A stretch of 64,000 bases of DNA from Heteronotia binoei (taxonomy: Eukaryota). Shown here one piece after another: positions 45,301 through 51,300 of this stretch. The position numbers are program-made. The DNA lies in NCBI RefSeq assembly GCF_032191835.1, contig NC_083225.1:83700001-83764000 (forward strand). Direction: 5' to 3'. The stretch's first letter is position 1. Each line of letters begins with the position of its first letter.

Positions 45301-48300
45301 TTTAAAAACCTGGGTTAAGTCTTCATTAACTTGAAAGGTCTGCATTAAAACCATTAAAAATCTGTTTGTCTTCAGAAGCTAAAGTGGGATAAAGAGCCCA
45401 TATAAAAGACGTCTATATTAGCCTAAATTTATGATACCTAAATGCAGTACATTGTATTTTATTGAATATAACATGGCTGTTTTACTAGAGATGGTTGCTA
45501 GGATCACATTTCTTCACTTGGAGGCAGAATTTCCAGTAATCCTATTCTGAGGCTTTTAAAGGAGGATTTAAAAAAAATAATTGGCCAGCTTCCACACACT
45601 CAAGAGTCTTGATCCAATACCCATTAAAGTTCCATTACATTTGAGATGTTTTGGAAAAAGGTTACATGGGTGTTGTCATCATAAAATCATTTATATGTGA
45701 TAAGATGCTGATGTGAATTCTACACGGCACTAGAGAAGGGAATTGCATTGATTTTAGGAGGCTAAAGTTGGTTCCTTATTCGCAGATCCTTATTCATTCC
45801 TTATTCTTGAATTCAAACAAAAACACTGAAGGAAGGAAGGGGGTACAGGAGGGGTAGGAGTTTCTTAAAAGTGAAATATTGAAAGCGCAATCACAGACGA
45901 TTCCTATGAGGAGAAAAAATGGAAAAAGCCTAAAGAAGTCTAAGTGGCTCCATAAACAGCTCTTTAAAGACTTGAGAAATAAAAAAGACTCCTTTAGGAA
46001 TTGGAAGGAGGGCCTTATAACCAAGGATGAATCTAAACAAATCACAAGTGCTTGTAGAGAAAAGTTAGGAAAGCTAAAGCTCAGTATGAGCTTAGGCTGG
46101 CCAAAGATGCTAAAAACAACAAAAAAGAGTTCTTTTTTTATGATCAGAGTAAGAAAAAGAGCAAGGACAAGGTAGGCCCATTGCAAGGGCAGGAATGTGA
46201 AATTGTAACAGGTAATGAAGAGAGGGCAGAATTACTCAATTCCTACTTTTCCTCAGTATTCTCTTCTGAGGGAAATGGTGCTCACCATGGCAAAAACAGA
46301 ACATATAAGGAGGGTATGAAGTTCCAACCTAGGATCAGCATAGGGATAGTACATAAACACCTAGTTTCTTTAAATGAATCTAAGTCCTCAGGGCCAGATG
46401 AATTGCATCCAAAGGTTCTAAAAGAGCTTGCAGATGTAATTTCTGAGCCTCTAGCTATTGTTTTTGAGAATTATTGGAGAACAGGAGAGGTGCCGGAAGA
46501 TTGGAAGTGGGCGAATGTTGTCCCCATCTTCAAGAAGGGGAAAAAAGATGATCTGGGTAACTACCGACCTGTCAGCTTGACATCTATACCTGGAAATGTT
46601 TAAGAACAAATCATCAAACAGTCGGTCCTGGAACATTTAGAAAGAATTGAGTGATTACTAAGAGCCAGCATGGTTTTCTCAAGAACAAGTCATGTCAGAC
46701 TAACCCGATCTCTTTTTTTTGAGAAAGTGACTACCTTGCTGGATCAGGGGAATGCTGTAGACGTGGTTTATCTTGATTTCAGTAAGGCTTTTGATAAGGT
46801 TCCACATACTATCCTTGTTGACAAGTTGGTAAAATGTGGTTTAGATCCTGTTACCATTAGGTGGATCTGTAACTGGTTGACAGATCACACCCGAAGACTG
46901 CTTGTGAATCCTCTTGGAGAGGAGTGACAAGTGGAGTGCCTCAAGGATCTGTTCTGGGACCTGTTTTGTTCAACATCTTTATCAATGATTTGGATGAAAA
47001 ATAGAGGGAATGCTTATTGAATTTGCCTATGATACTAAATTGGAAGGGGTTGCAAATACAGAAGAAGACAGAAACAGGATACAGGATGACCTTGACAGGC
47101 TGGAAAACTGGGCTAAAATTAATAAAATGACTTTTAACAGGGATAAATGTAAAGTTCTACATTTAGGTAGGAAAAATCCAATGCATGGTTATAGGATGGG
47201 GGAGACTTGTCTTAGCAGTAGTATGTGCGAAAAGGATCTAGGGGTCTTAGTGGATCATACGCTGAACATGAGTCAACAGTGTGATGCAGTGGCTAAAAAG
47301 GCAAATGCAGTTTTGGGCTGTATCAACAGAAGTATAGTGTCCAGATCACGTGATGTGATGGTATCGCTTTACTCTGCTCTGGTAAGACCTCACCTGGAGA
47401 ATTGTCTTCAGTTTTGGGAACCACATTTTAAGAAGGATATAGACAAGCTGGAATGGGTCCAGAAGAGGGAGATGAGGGTGGTGAGGGGTCTGGAGACCAA
47501 GTCCTATGAGGAAAGGTTGAAGGAGCTGGGGATGTTTAGCCTGGAGAGGAGGCGGCTAAGAGGTGATATGATCACCCTCTTCAAGTATTTGGAGGGCTGT
47601 CATCTAGAGGATGGTGTGGAATTGTTTTCTGTGGCCCTGGAGGGTAGGACCAGAAGCAATGGGTTGAAATTAAATCAAAAGAGTTTCCGGTTCAACGTTA
47701 GAAAGAACGTCCTGACAGTTAGAGCGATTCCTCAGTGGAACAGGCTTCCTTGGGAGGTGGTGGGCTCTCCTTCCTTGGAGGTTTTTATACAGAGGCTAGA
47801 TGGCCATATGACAGCAATGAAGATCCTGTGATTTTGGGGGGAGGTGTTTGTGAGTTTCCTGCATTGTGCAGGGGGTTGGACTAAATGACCCTAGAAGTCC
47901 CTTCCAGCTCTATGATTCTATGAAATGGGCCAGAAAGCTAGCAAGCTCTGTTAGGTGGTTTTCAAGATCTCCATATTTGCACTTGGAAAAAATTATGGAC
48001 TATACTTATACTTTTGGCACAAGCACTTTATGATACTAAAAATCTTCAAATCCATCATTGTATTGAAATTTGATAAACTTTATTGAATTTTCTATGAAGA
48101 TCTCCCAGAATTACATTTTATCTTCTGTTTCCCTAGAGACCAGTTTCCCTAGAGAAAGTGACTGCTTTGCAGGGTGAACTTCCCTTGCCCAGTTCTCTGG
48201 ATCCCATGGGAGAAATACAAAGAAAGAACCTTTAAGACCAACAAGTGTTAATGTTGTAAGGATATTTTAAGGTTTGTTTTTTAAAAAAATAATAATAATA

Positions 48301-51300
48301 ATTGTGTTTGTATATGTCCTTTATAAAGTTTATATCTCTGCTATGTAATCTTAAATAGGTACATACATGGCCCAGCTCGACAAGGTTTCATTTATGTCAG
48401 ATCCAGCCCTCATAAAATGTATCTGACACTCCTGCCCTAGCAGAATAATTATTCTCAGTTGAATGCTCCATGTTACAACTGGTTAATTCCTCCAGATTAT
48501 TATAAAATCAACTAATACAGATCAAGGTGTTTTCTTGTTGGTTCCTTATTCATGAATGCAAACAAAAAAACTGAAGAGAGTTTGAAAGCTCTGAACCCCA
48601 AAATAAGGTCTGGACCCCCATTCACGAATAAGGAACCAACTTCAGCCTCTATTGATTTTGCAGAAACAAGGTTCGGCCCCTTCCCAGCCGAGCCTGCTCG
48701 CAGGCCATAGGCTGGGGGCCGTCTTTGCTCCTCCGGAAGGAAGGAGGGGCAGAAGGATCACCCGACATACGGGTGTTTTAGCTGGGCGCGGAGGCGGGGC
48801 TATTTAAGCCCCGGCTCCCGCCTCAGCACGCAGTTCGTTTTGGCTCTCTGGTTGGAGAGCCACGTGCGGCATCGTGGAGCGGAAGACGAGGCCTGAGTCG
48901 TCAGGGCCTGTACCTTGGCCAGCGAGGTCGGAGCGCGAGCGGCGGCTACAGCGCTGGCTGGGTGAAACGCGGAGCGCGAGCGGCGGCTGCAGAGCTGGCT
49001 GGATGAGACGCGTGCGGCTGCTGGGACGCTTGAGGCGGCGGTTTGCGCAAGTGGGAGTCGGGCGGCCCTTTCGTTGGGTAAAGGGGCGGCCCGGGGGGGT
49101 TGCTGGCGGCTGGTGACGGCGGCGGCATTCTATAGGTTGGGAGGCCACAGAAGGCAAGCGCTAGCGGCGGCCATTTCGTCGGCGCTGGGGCCCTTTGCTC
49201 ATTCAGGGGCTAATTTAGTGAGCATTAGCTGTGGGAGACGAGCGCTGGCCTCCTGTTTCTTCGCCCCTCGGTACCGGGCTTAGAGCGCAGCGGCCCTTCT
49301 AAGGGGCGGTGCGCACGCGGCGGCCGTTTTAGGGCATCCAAAAGGGTGATCAACATATGGAATTTACTGCGCAGGATGTGGTGGCGGCCGCGGGTATGGC
49401 CACTGTTCAGAGGGGTTTAGATAGAGCACAGGCCCATTGGTGGCTATTGGCCACAGTGTAGGTGTGTGTATGAAATCTTTTGCCACTGGGTGACACAGAG
49501 TGTTGGACTTGGTGGGCGGTTGGCCTGAACCAACAGGGCTTCTCTTCTGTTCTTCTGTGACACAGAGTGTTGGACTGGATGGGCCATTGGCCTGATCTAA
49601 CATGGCTTCTCTTATGTTCTTCTGTGACACAGCATGTTGGACTGGAGGGGCCATTGGCCTGATCTAACATGGATTCTCTTATGTTCTTCTGTGACACAGA
49701 GTGTTGGACTGGATGGGCCATTGGCCTGATCTAACATGGCTTCTCTTATGTTCTTATGTGATGCAGAGTGTTGGACTGGATGGGCCACTGGCCTGATCCA
49801 ACATTGCTTTTCTTATGTTCTTCTGTGACACAGGGTGCTGGACTTGATGGGCCGTTGGCCTGAACCAACAGGGTTTCTCTTATGGCCTTCTGTGACACAG
49901 AGTGTTGGACTGGATGGGCCATTGGCCTGATCTAACATGGCTTCTCTTATGTTCTTCAGTGACACAGTGTGTTGGACTTGACGGGCCGTTGGCCTGAACC
50001 AACAGGGCTTCTCTTGTGTTCTTCTGTGACACAGAGTGTTGGACTGGATGGGCCATTGGCCTGATCTAACTTGGCTTCTCTTATGTTCTTCTGTACACAG
50101 AGTGTTGGACCTGATGGGCCGTTTGCCTGATCCAACACGGCTTCCCTTATGTTCTTACCCTGCCTTTGGGCGGCATTGGGAGCTCTCACCAGAATCATAC
50201 CCTGGGGCCGAGGCTTGTGCGCGTGAGCTGCTAGTCGGTGCGGCGCGGGCCTCCCTTCTCAGAGCTGCCTGGTCGGGGCTGCAAGGAGCAGTTCGGGATG
50301 GCTCTGGCAGCGCTGGACAGCTTTAAATAGCTTTTAAGTAGCACATGAATGGCAAAGCAGTTCTTTAAGGAATGAGGGAGCTTGGGCGGGGGTGCACGAG
50401 GTGAGACCGGGTGGCCCCCCCCTCCCCTCTTTTTTCCTTCCCCCTCCCGGCGGGTCCAGATGGATAGGCTTTAAACTTCAGCTTGAGTCCATGGGAGTTG
50501 TTGCAGTCAGTGCGGTCAGCGCTGACCCTGGTGTAACCGGGGGTCTGATTCAGTATAAGGTAGCTTCATATTTTGTATGTTCAAGGTCTCCTTTGGAGCC
50601 AGTTTGGTGTAGTGGTCAAGGCGGACTATTATCATTTCACCTGAATTGCCCAGGTTAGGTGATCTTGTTAGATCATGGAAGTTAAACAGGGTCTGCTCAG
50701 GTCAATACCCGGATGGGAGACCACCGAGGAATACCGGAGCTGTTATGCAGAGGCTTGCAGTTAGGGTTGCTGGCCTCCAGGTATGTCCTGGAGACTTCCC
50801 ACTTTGGGAGAGCCAGGTTTCATTCACTACTCCACTACTTGCACCTTTTGCATAGCTCTGGCAGGAGCTGGCCTGGATAAGGCGGCTGCCATGGGAGCCC
50901 TCTTTAGCCCCACCCACCTCGCGGGGTGCCTGTTGGGGGAGAGGGAGGTACTGGAGATGGTGAGCCGCTCTGGGACTCTCCGGAGTGGAGGGCGGATATG
51001 GGTCCTGTATCTTCCTCCTTTTGAAAGGGTAGCTTCTTTGTGAGCTCTCCCAGCCTACCCACGTTGCAGGGCGTCTGTTGTGGGAGGAGAGGATGGAGAC
51101 GCCTCCTCCACCTGTATTAGGTCAAAGCCGTGGCCTTGGCGGCGGGCGCCCCATTGGGGAGGTGGTGGCAATCAGCAGCCCCTTGAAAAGGGGGCCCTGC
51201 CCCATTTGACTGAGGGTACTCGGTTGATTGATGAGCAAGTGCCCATGTGCAGCTGATGGCCAGTATCTGCCCAGGGTGTTTCTCTTTGGGGTGTCTGAGC

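What the first reader, a model, noticed from the sequence alone, without database searches (positions are those of the whole stretch)
45797..48576. 2.7-kb CR1-plus-unique-flank block is an inverted copy of DNA ~10 kb downstream, inserted into a MITE
Seen: 47484-48178 is the reverse complement of 57188-57882 (CR1 3' end plus ~260 bp of non-repeat flank). 48176-48540 is the reverse complement of 55584-55949 (half a MITE plus ~105 bp of flank). The two parts join through a 3-nt GAA microhomology that skips ~1.24 kb of the source. The block lies between 35-bp imperfect direct repeats (45797-45831 and 48542-48576, 32/35) inside a small TIR element. Inference: either a 3' transduction by CR1, which is unusual because CR1 is considered strict about its own 3' tail, or a templated insertion during break repair with a template switch. 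The source CR1 later lost most of ORF2.
Basis: partly seen in the sequence, partly recalled or inferred. Interest (0 to 1): 0.65.

Follow-up and report, generated by a model that had tools for sequence, protein, structure and literature searches.

The report
Inverted local duplication appended to CR1
A 1-kb piece of nearby DNA was copied backwards onto the tail of a CR1 retrotransposon, most likely by DNA break repair that used a second, oppositely oriented CR1 fragment as a landing pad, and not by the CR1 carrying its flank along.

Summary

Four new facts change the reading.
1. 6.5 kb of the "10 kb" separation (48667-55153) is a non-coding block with 100%-identical split repeats. Without it the copy lies 556 bp from its template.
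2. The source CR1 (57443-57882) stops being CR1 at 57882-57885. It appears to have its own target-site duplication (P about 0.011), so it was probably always about 440 bp. It did not lose ORF2 and cannot have fathered the 2.1-kb CR1.
3. Divergence is a mosaic. A 385-bp core across the GAA joint is 100% identical. The CR1 part differs by 2.3%, the distal part by 4.4% plus three indels, and the 35-mers by 8.6% (P about 0.0009). At least two events of different age are needed.
4. The block's 3' end has no splice sites, poly(A) signal or CR1 octamer.

Best reading: an ordinary CR1 insertion, then a repair event guided by the two inverted CR1 ends that duplicated local DNA in inverted orientation, then recent arm-to-arm conversion with the 1238-bp deletion. 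This is a known kind of rearrangement and of moderate interest. Genome-wide copy number and long reads could not be checked.

The parts
45747..45755 (.). Left copy of the 9-bp target-site duplication (ATTGATTTT) of the small TIR element
   Evidence: Exact 9/9 repeat at 45747 and 48651, abutting the TIRs
45756..45831 (+). Left part of the small TIR element (MITE). It includes the left 35-mer, 45797-45831
   Evidence: TIR pair 45758-45815 / 48592-48649 (I5). The empty-site reconstruction folds as a hairpin, z = -6.9. The 35-mers match 32/35
45832..47923 (+). CR1-L: a 5'-truncated CR1 (ORF2 aa ~367-1028, 3' UTR, tail ...GCTCTATGATTCTATGA). Decayed: stops at 45855, 46601, 46652 and at least 2 frameshifts, all before 47001
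   Evidence: tblastn with bird and turtle CR1 ORF2 proteins; weak RVT_1 hit; lesions; octamer at 47915
47484..47923 (+). CR1 part of arm A, homologous to CR1-R. 10 mismatches in 440 nt, the last at 47884
47924..48178 (+). a': inverted copy of the 3' flank of CR1-R (57188-57442). It starts with CR1-R's own target-site duplication. 0 differences
   Evidence: 257 nt at 100%
47885..48269 (.). 385-bp core with 0 differences from the source. It spans the GAA joint
   Evidence: permutation P = 0.0009; Fisher tests
48176..48178 (.). Joint J2: GAA shared by both source pieces. 1238 bp of source is skipped
48176..48540 (+). B': inverted copy of 55584-55949. It holds 259 nt of the hAT-like MITE plus 106 nt of its flank. 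48176-48269 is identical; 48270-48540 has 12 mismatches and 3 indels
48541..48650 (+). Right part of the small TIR element. 48541 is a G of unassigned origin; the right 35-mer is 48542-48576. 48537-48640 can form a hairpin whose base is at joint J3 (48540/48541)
   Evidence: (z = -3.4; 0 of 200 shuffles as stable)
48651..48659 (.). Right copy of the 9-bp target-site duplication of the small TIR element
48667..55153 (+). Later, non-coding GC-rich block: CAA-[A1 184 bp ... B1 399 bp]-CAA-[A2 - 162 bp - B2]-CAA. A and B copies are 100% identical. TATA-like motif in A, AATAAA in B
   Evidence: No RT or recombinase hit in the 78 ORFs that overlap it
55154..55583 (.). 430 bp of the original spacer between copy and template
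   Evidence: spacer is 556 bp without the block
55584..55949 (-). B: template of B'
55690..56294 (.). Complete hAT-like MITE in the source, with 8-bp duplication TGCTAGGG (55682-55689) / TGCTAGTA (56295-56302)
55950..57187 (-). M: 1238 bp present in the source and absent from the copy
57188..57442 (-). a: template of a'. 57430-57442 (TTTCTGGCCCATT on +) is the 3' copy of CR1-R's target-site duplication
57443..57882 (-). CR1-R: 440-bp 5'-truncated CR1 3' end, in inverted orientation to CR1-L
57891..57901 (-). 5' copy of CR1-R's target-site duplication (TTTCTGGCATT on +), separated from the CR1 start by 8 nt of filler

Best explanation
This is a multi-step rearrangement at the DNA level, not a retrotransposition of flank.

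Step 1 (inferred). Two ordinary, independent CR1 insertions ended up in inverted orientation a few kb apart. CR1-L is 2.1 kb, sits inside a small MITE and is flanked by the 35-bp duplication. CR1-R is 440 bp and has its own 11-13-bp duplication.

Step 2 (inferred). A break or stalled fork arose at the junction between the CR1-L tail and the hairpin-prone right half of the MITE. It was repaired using the 440-bp inverted CR1 homology. Either the CR1-L end invaded CR1-R and synthesis ran on through a, M and B, or the other end folded back and copied B, M, a and CR1-R before annealing to CR1-L. The run was closed by end joining at 48540/48541 with 0-1 nt of homology and one extra G. The result was an inverted duplication with roughly 2.3-kb arms and a 556-bp spacer.

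Step 3 (shown: it is younger; inferred: how it happened). The copy arm was repaired again from the source arm, either by arm-to-arm conversion or by aborted synthesis-dependent annealing from both sides. The two sides were joined at GAA. This removed the 1238 bp and left 385 bp identical to the source.

Step 4 (inferred). The 6.5-kb block with perfect repeats entered the spacer.
For: 1. CR1-R ends where the arm ends. 232 of 261 HSPs from 120 CR1 proteins start at 57885/57882; 15 run further, to 57951 at most; 14 start further in.
2. Its flanks share AATGGGCCAGAAA / AATGCCAGAAA. The 3' copy lies 1 nt from the octamer tail (local-alignment P = 0.011 against 5000 random 30-mer pairs; exact 8-mer P = 0.020).
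3. a' begins with that duplication, so the copying direction was source to copy.
4. Copy and template are local: 556 bp apart without 48667-55153, 7043 bp with it.
5. One junction lies in 440 bp of inverted homology (97.7%) and the others have 3 nt and 0-1 nt. This is the pattern described for rearrangements mediated by inverted repeats followed by template switches (abstracts of PMC11293582 and 10.1101/2023.10.02.560172).
6. The mosaic: 0/385 in the core against 12/271 (Fisher 2e-5), 10/401 (0.002) and 3/35 (0.0005). The longest identical run has P = 0.0009 in 200,000 permutations.
7. CR1-L is decayed, with 3 stops and at least 2 frameshifts, and its 35-mers differ at 3/35. This fits an insertion at least as old as the outer arm parts.
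8. 48537-48640 folds as a hairpin with its base at J3 (z = -3.4).
Against: 1. The three 'old' compartments (CR1 part 2.5%, distal B 4.4%, 35-mers 8.6%) are statistically compatible with one age (P = 0.12-0.19). Nothing here proves that the CR1-L insertion and the duplication were separate events.
2. The model needs the repair joint J3 to fall at, or inside, the right copy of CR1-L's target-site duplication. Single-insertion models get this for free.
3. CR1-R's 5' duplication copy is 8 nt away from the CR1 start. The duplication also has a 2-nt indel, and P = 0.011 is not overwhelming.
4. A 35-bp duplication is long for a LINE insertion. I found no figures for CR1 in the passages read.
5. No intermediate was seen, neither CR1-L alone in the MITE nor a copy still holding the 1238 bp. 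No other genome copy could be searched.
Confidence: 0.5

Rival explanations
1. One templated insertion at the DNA level. A staggered break or template-switching fork in the MITE copied the whole stretch from a then-longer source CR1 through a, M and B, returning 35 bp back. The source CR1 later lost its 5' part by deletion. The copy was later converted and lost the 1238 bp.
For: - The 35-mers flank the entire block, so no coincidence is needed at J3.
- The CR1 part, distal B and the 35-mers are compatible with a single age.
- Copy and template are local.
- Possible GAAG microhomology at the 5' joint.
Against: - It needs an extra deletion in the source whose edge happens to sit 8 nt from an 11-13-nt match to the sequence abutting the CR1 tail (P = 0.011).
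- No CR1 remnant lies beyond 57885 anywhere up to 64000.
- It still needs the later conversion and deletion step.
Confidence: 0.13
2. CR1 3' transduction. A read-through transcript from the source CR1 carried a, M and B and was inserted by target-primed reverse transcription into the MITE.
For: - The block starts with a 5'-truncated CR1 in sense orientation.
- The flank follows the CR1 tail in the order and orientation of the source.
- A direct repeat flanks the whole block.
Against: - The source CR1 is 440 bp with apparently its own duplication. It is shorter than the 2.1-kb offspring.
- The insertion lies 556 bp to 7 kb from the template's end.
- There is no poly(A) signal, A-tail or ATTCTRTG octamer at the block's 3' end, and no splice-site dinucleotides at the skip.
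- The GAA joint is younger than the 35-mers.
- CR1 reverse transcriptase is thought to recognise its own 3' hairpin and octamer (passages in PMC8665684 and PMC4316615).
Confidence: 0.06
3. Assembly artefact or composite repeat. Either the inverted block (or its 100%-identical core) is a mis-join, a haplotype mix or a polishing effect, or a'-B' is a multi-copy composite repeat rather than unique flank.
For: - Three 100%-identical stretches (385, 184 and 399 bp) lie within 7.3 kb.
- The A-int-B / A-x-B layout of 48667-55153 could also arise if two haplotypes were placed in tandem.
- Genome-wide copy number is untested.
Against: - The outer arm parts differ by 2.3-4.4% with indels, unlike a chimeric-read duplication.
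- The block is bounded by a direct repeat inside an element with intact TIRs and a perfect 9-bp duplication.
- No N run lies nearer than 42168.
- There are no further copies of a, M or the B flank in the window.
Confidence: 0.1

Closest known systems
Rearrangements mediated by inverted repeats with template switching (DUP-TRP/INV-DUP type; MMBIR)
   Same: - One junction lies inside a pair of inverted homologous repeats, here two CR1 3' ends of 440 bp at 97.7%.
- Further junctions have 0-3 nt of homology.
- The duplicated segment is inverted and local (abstracts of PMC11293582, 10.1101/2023.10.02.560172, PMC4352052 and PMC2621351 seen in the listing).
   Different: - The scale is about 1-2 kb rather than tens to hundreds of kb.
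- No triplication is seen.
- The event is fixed in a reference-type sequence rather than found in a patient.
- It has since been remodelled by conversion and a deletion.
Fold-back inverted duplications at double-strand breaks
   Same: An inverted copy separated from its template by a short spacer (556 bp), with little homology at the turning point (abstracts of PMC3907307, PMC10622511 and PMC11724301).
   Different: - Here the far end of the new synthesis can be captured through CR1 homology.
- The result is an interstitial insertion, not a terminal duplication or a dicentric chromosome.
LINE 3' transduction (described for L1; recalled, no paper read here)
   Same: A 5'-truncated LINE followed by its source's 3' flank, all between direct repeats.
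   Different: - The source is shorter than the offspring.
- The 3' end carries no transcript-end signature.
- Copy and source are adjacent.
- The divergence is a mosaic.
Aborted synthesis-dependent strand annealing, and arm-to-arm gene conversion in palindromes (both recalled, no paper read here)
   Same: Tracts identical to the template on both sides of a microhomology joint that deletes the middle.
   Different: It is inferred from sequence only. One step and two steps (conversion, then deletion) cannot be told apart.
Split-direct-repeat retroelements (PAT/Ngaro type), for 48667-55153 only
   Same: The order A1 ... B1-A2 ... B2, with A1 = A2 and B1 = B2, as described in passages of PMC4157794. 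A TATA-like motif in A and AATAAA in B.
   Different: - No RT or tyrosine recombinase was found.
- 162 bp separate A2 from B2.
- A tandem pair of related elements sharing CAA fits equally well.

Membership tests
CR1 LINE (CR1-L and CR1-R) | ORF2 reverse transcriptase homologous to CR1 ORF2 | tested here: met
   - The 277-aa ORF 46998-47828 finds 1822 proteins at E <= 1e-20. The 120 listed are 51-63% identical and are mostly RT-domain proteins of birds and a turtle.
- tblastn places aa 367-1028 on 45837-47801 and aa 922-1034 on 57885-57547.
- The Pfam RVT_1 hit is weak: 22.2 bits against a cut-off of 29.6.
CR1 LINE (CR1-L and CR1-R) | 3' octamer microsatellite ATTCTRTG | tested here: met
   One exact octamer at 47915-47922, preceded by GCTCTATG (6/8). 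CR1-R carries the same. The motif is as given in PMC8665684.
CR1 LINE (CR1-L and CR1-R) | Conserved 3' UTR hairpin | tested here: inconclusive
   The centroid fold shows two short hairpins, but the energy is no better than shuffles (z = 0.51).
LINE 3' transduction | Source element at least as long as the offspring's LINE part | tested here: not met
   The source CR1 is 440 bp, ends at 57882-57885 and has an apparent duplication of its own (P = 0.011). The offspring CR1 is 2.1 kb.
LINE 3' transduction | Transduced flank ends with a transcript-end or RT-priming signature | tested here: not met
   No AATAAA or ATTAAA in the last 71 nt, no A-run and no ATTCTRTG at 48441-48560 or in the source at 55520-55640.
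LINE 3' transduction | Direct repeats flank LINE plus flank | tested here: met
   35-mers match 32/35.
LINE 3' transduction | All parts of one age | tested here: not met
   The core is 0/385 against 2.5-8.6% elsewhere.
Template-switch or repair duplication mediated by inverted repeats | Pre-existing inverted homologous repeats at one junction | tested here: inconclusive
   Inverted CR1 3' ends of 440 bp at 97.7% are present. That CR1-L was there before the duplication is inferred, not shown.
Template-switch or repair duplication mediated by inverted repeats | Other junctions with micro- or no homology; template nearby | tested here: met
   J2 has GAA. J3 has 0-1 nt plus one extra G. The spacer is 556 bp, or 7043 bp as assembled.
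Template-switch or repair duplication mediated by inverted repeats | Structure confirmed by spanning reads, and copy number | not testable with these tools
   No reads and no genome of this organism were available.
PAT/Ngaro-type tyrosine-recombinase retroelement (48667-55153) | Split direct repeats A1-B1-A2-B2 | tested here: inconclusive
   The order and the 100% identity fit, but A2 and B2 are 162 bp apart.
PAT/Ngaro-type tyrosine-recombinase retroelement (48667-55153) | RT and tyrosine recombinase ORFs | tested here: not met
   None of the 78 ORFs of 55 aa or more that overlap the block hits such a family. The two hits there are below their cut-offs and unrelated.
MITE (small TIR element 45756-48650) | Terminal inverted repeats plus target-site duplication | tested here: met
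   TIRs (I5); 9/9 ATTGATTTT; hairpin fold of the reconstructed 147 nt. No second copy in the window.

The most novel reading that the evidence does not exclude
A single target-primed reverse-transcription event in which CR1 reverse transcriptase did not start on CR1 RNA. It first copied a local, possibly nascent, host transcript that happened to contain the embedded CR1-R tail. It then switched by homology onto CR1 mRNA and finished as a 5'-truncated CR1. This would be a chimeric 'flank-first' retrocopy made by a LINE thought to be strict about its 3' end. It would explain at once why the direct repeats flank the whole block, why the source CR1 is short, and why the old compartments have one age. 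The GAA deletion would still be a later event.
Probability: 0.06. Interest if true: 0.7.

Novelty: new member of a known kind. Interest (0 to 1): 0.3.

Why it matters
It shows how two oppositely oriented copies of an abundant LINE can seed a local inverted duplication, and how the resulting near-palindrome is later trimmed and homogenised. It also removes an apparent exception to CR1's strict 3'-end recognition. Structures that look like LINE 3' transduction (LINE plus source flank between direct repeats) can be produced by DNA repair. The tests that tell them apart are the length and target-site duplication of the source element, the distance to the template, and divergence measured per segment. 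In itself this is one more example of a known class of rearrangement.

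Tried and rejected
- **Splicing of the 1238 bp:** rejected. None of the four possible registers gives GT-AG, GC-AG or AT-AC.
- **CR1 continuing beyond 57882 behind a nested insertion:** not found up to 64000 by blastn or tblastn. The few HSPs reaching 57951 (15 of 261) look like chance extensions.
- **Other copies in the window:** none for the small TIR element. None for a, M, the B flank or the hAT-like MITE.
- **Coding capacity of 48667-55153:** none found.
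- **Rfam over the whole window:** 0 matches.
- **CR1 3' UTR fold:** not distinguishable from shuffles.
- **ORF lesions as a clock:** all lesions lie before 47001, but this is not significant once the arm is excluded (my estimate), so I did not use it.
- **Literature on CR1 3' transduction:** one search for CR1 with transduction and related terms listed 7 of 8 papers. By title, none is about CR1 transduction. PMC8665684 has 0 occurrences of 'transduction'. This is a thin search, not proof that no such report exists.
- **Unchecked:**
  - No eukaryotic genome, read set or ortholog was available, and the only open contig collection holds bacteria and archaea. Genome-wide copy number, empty sites and long-read support therefore stayed unchecked.
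  - Supplements of the papers were not seen.
- **No joined model:** The broken CR1 ORF2 was read frame by frame.
- **Organism and N runs:** I do not take the window for human. The N runs at 13021-13175 and 42021-42168 were left alone.

Full report
**Observation**

- 47484-48178 is the reverse complement of 57188-57882 (695 nt, 10 mismatches, no gaps).
- 48176-48540 is the reverse complement of 55584-55949 (12 mismatches, 3 indel events).
- The two pieces share GAA at 48176-48178 and skip 1238 bp of the source.
- The block lies between 35-mers that match 32/35.
- These sit inside a small TIR element, 45756-48650. It has its own perfect 9-bp target-site duplication (ATTGATTTT at 45747 and 48651). 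With the block and one 35-mer removed in silico, its 147 nt fold as a hairpin (z = -6.9). This supports reading the 35-mer as a duplication made on insertion rather than as a built-in repeat.
- The window has N runs only at 13021-13175 and 42021-42168. They were left alone.
- I do not take the window for human. It carries a CR1 with long ORF2 remnants that are 51-63% identical to bird and turtle CR1 proteins.

**Anatomy of the copy**
- CR1-L runs from 45832 to 47923 on the + strand. Homology to a 1035-aa CR1 ORF2 (P0082) covers aa 367-1028.
- The tail is ...GCTCTATG-ATTCTATG-A, with the octamer at 47915. This matches the ATTCTRTG motif described for amniote CR1 (passages of PMC8665684).
- CR1-L is decayed. 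It has stops at 45855, 46601 and 46652 and at least two frameshifts, all before 47001.

**Anatomy of the source**
- CR1-R is 57443-57882 on the - strand.
- The 'half MITE' belongs to a complete hAT-like element, 55690-56294, with 8-bp duplication TGCTAGGG/TGCTAGTA. The source context is therefore the original one.

**New fact 1: the distance**

Between the arms lies 48667-55153, a GC-rich block.
- It has no protein-family hit other than two unrelated hits below their cut-offs. 78 of the 141 ORFs scanned overlap it; none matches RT, RNase H or a recombinase.
- Its layout is CAA-[A1 184 bp ... B1 399 bp]-CAA-[A2 - 162 bp - B2]-CAA. A1 = A2 and B1 = B2 at 100%.
- A carries a TATA-like motif and B carries AATAAA.
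- The order A1-B1-A2-B2 is the split-direct-repeat layout described for PAT/Ngaro-type elements (passages of PMC4157794). A tandem pair of related elements, or two haplotypes placed in tandem, would look similar.
- If it is a later insertion, as its perfect repeats suggest, the copy originally ended 556 bp from the start of its template. As assembled the gap is 7043 bp.

**New fact 2: the source CR1**
- With 120 CR1 proteins, 232 of 261 tblastn HSPs on the source begin at 57885/57882. 15 extend a little further (to 57951 at most) and 14 begin further in.
- The translated sequence upstream is not CR1-like.
- On the CR1 strand, the 13 nt one base after the octamer tail (AATGGGCCAGAAA) recur as AATGCCAGAAA 8 nt upstream of the CR1 start. 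A local alignment this good occurs in 1.1% of random 30-mer pairs from the window. The exact 8-mer occurs in 2.0% of 40-mer pairs.
- CR1-R therefore looks like an ordinary, independent, 440-bp truncated insertion with its own target-site duplication.
- The copy a' starts with that duplication at 100% identity. This fixes the direction of copying and means the source probably never held the 1.65 kb of ORF2 that CR1-L has.

**New fact 3: the mosaic**

| Segment | Differences from source |
|---|---|
| CR1 part of arm A, 47484-47884 | 10 mismatches (47510-47884) |
| Core, 47885-48269 (385 nt, spans the GAA joint) | 0 |
| Distal B, 48270-48540 | 12 mismatches and 3 indels |
| 35-mers | 3/35 |

(Counts.)

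- A run of 385 identical positions among 22 mismatches in 1057 has P = 0.0009 (200,000 permutations).
- The core differs from distal B (Fisher 2e-5), from the CR1 part (0.002) and from the 35-mers (0.0005).
- The three diverged compartments are compatible with each other (P = 0.12-0.19).
- CpG content does not explain the pattern. There are 0-1 CpG in a, proximal B and distal B.
- So the GAA joint and its surroundings are younger than the rest. No single event explains the block.

**Against 3' transduction**
- The source is shorter than the offspring.
- The insertion is next to its template.
- None of the four registers of the skip has splice dinucleotides.
- The last 71 nt of the block have no poly(A) signal, and there is no CR1 octamer at the block's end or at the matching source position.
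- CR1 reverse transcriptase is thought to recognise its own 3' hairpin and octamer (passages in PMC8665684 and PMC4316615).
- I found no report of CR1 3' transduction. My search was thin: one listing of 7 of 8 papers judged by title, plus 0 occurrences of 'transduction' in PMC8665684.

**Best explanation**

Two independent CR1 insertions in inverted orientation supplied 440 bp of homology. A break or stalled fork arose at the CR1-L tail. This tail lies next to a hairpin-forming half MITE (48537-48640; z = -3.4; 0 of 200 shuffles as stable; stem base at the joint). The break was repaired through that homology. Synthesis ran through a, the 1238 bp and B, and was closed by end joining at 48540/48541, with 0-1 nt of homology and one unassigned G. 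This is the architecture reported for rearrangements mediated by inverted repeats followed by template switches, and for fold-back duplications (abstracts only).

The resulting near-palindrome, with about 2.3-kb arms and a 556-bp spacer, was later repaired from its partner arm. That left 385 bp identical and joined the two sides at GAA, with loss of the 1238 bp. This step resembles aborted synthesis-dependent annealing, or palindrome arm-to-arm conversion followed by a deletion. I recall both processes from the literature and read no paper on either here. Finally the 6.5-kb block entered the spacer.

What is shown:
- the structures and junctions;
- the direction of copying;
- the younger age of the core;
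- the end of CR1-R.

What is inferred:
- the order of the CR1-L insertion and the duplication;
- the nature of the initiating lesion;
- whether conversion and deletion were one step;
- the insertion nature of 48667-55153.

**Weak points**
- The old compartments do not differ significantly in age.
- The model needs the repair joint to fall at or within CR1-L's right target-site duplication.
- CR1-R's duplication rests on P of about 0.01 and needs 8 nt of filler.
- A 35-bp duplication is long.

A single templated insertion from a once-longer source CR1 therefore remains possible (about 0.13). So do an artefact or multi-copy composite (about 0.1) and transduction (about 0.06).

**Not checked**

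Genome-wide copy number of the flank, orthologous empty sites and long reads could not be checked. Paper supplements were not seen.

**Verdict**

This is a real, well-delimited rearrangement of a known kind, with a more interesting history than a single insertion. It is not evidence for CR1 3' transduction.

Noticed in passing
window 48667-55153: A 6.5-kb GC-rich non-coding block laid out as CAA-[A1 ... B1]-CAA-[A2 - 162 bp - B2]-CAA. The A (184 bp) and B (399 bp) copies are 100% identical. A has a TATA-like motif and B has AATAAA. A third, 82%-similar B-like piece lies at 53352-53619. It resembles the split direct repeats of PAT/Ngaro-type retroelements but has no RT or recombinase.
   Followed up: partly
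window 49490-50156 and 33025-33110: A 67-bp tandem array of 10 copies at 87% inside that block. A single related unit (85-96% identical) lies on the opposite strand at 33025-33110, next to old LINE remnants.
   Followed up: no
window 50805-51089 and 2217-2445: Part of the block's interior is 75-82% similar to 2217-2445 on the opposite strand. The interior therefore contains dispersed repeat material.
   Followed up: no
window 22949-24472 (+), 30008-30961 (-), 33556-34943 (+): Older, much more diverged CR1/LINE-type reverse-transcriptase remnants, 25-50% identical to bird and turtle CR1 ORF2.
   Followed up: no
window 58421-58768: Another MITE-like pair of inverted repeats, 58421-58454 / 58735-58768 (34 nt, 94%), just beyond the source CR1.
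   Followed up: no
window 48534-48541 vs 45789-45796: The last 8 nt before the right 35-mer (CTTGTTGG, the end of B' plus the extra G) match 5/8 to the 8 nt before the left 35-mer (CTTATTCA). They also recreate the GTTGG of the element's TIR, which lengthens the hairpin stem. This may be imperfect microhomology at joint J3, or chance.
   Followed up: partly
window 13021-13175 and 42021-42168: Two N runs of 155 and 148 nt, far from the finding. They were left as they are.
   Followed up: no
window 59136-59191 and 59272-59327: A 56-nt direct repeat, 82% identical, 136 bp apart (D7). Its nature is unknown.
   Followed up: no
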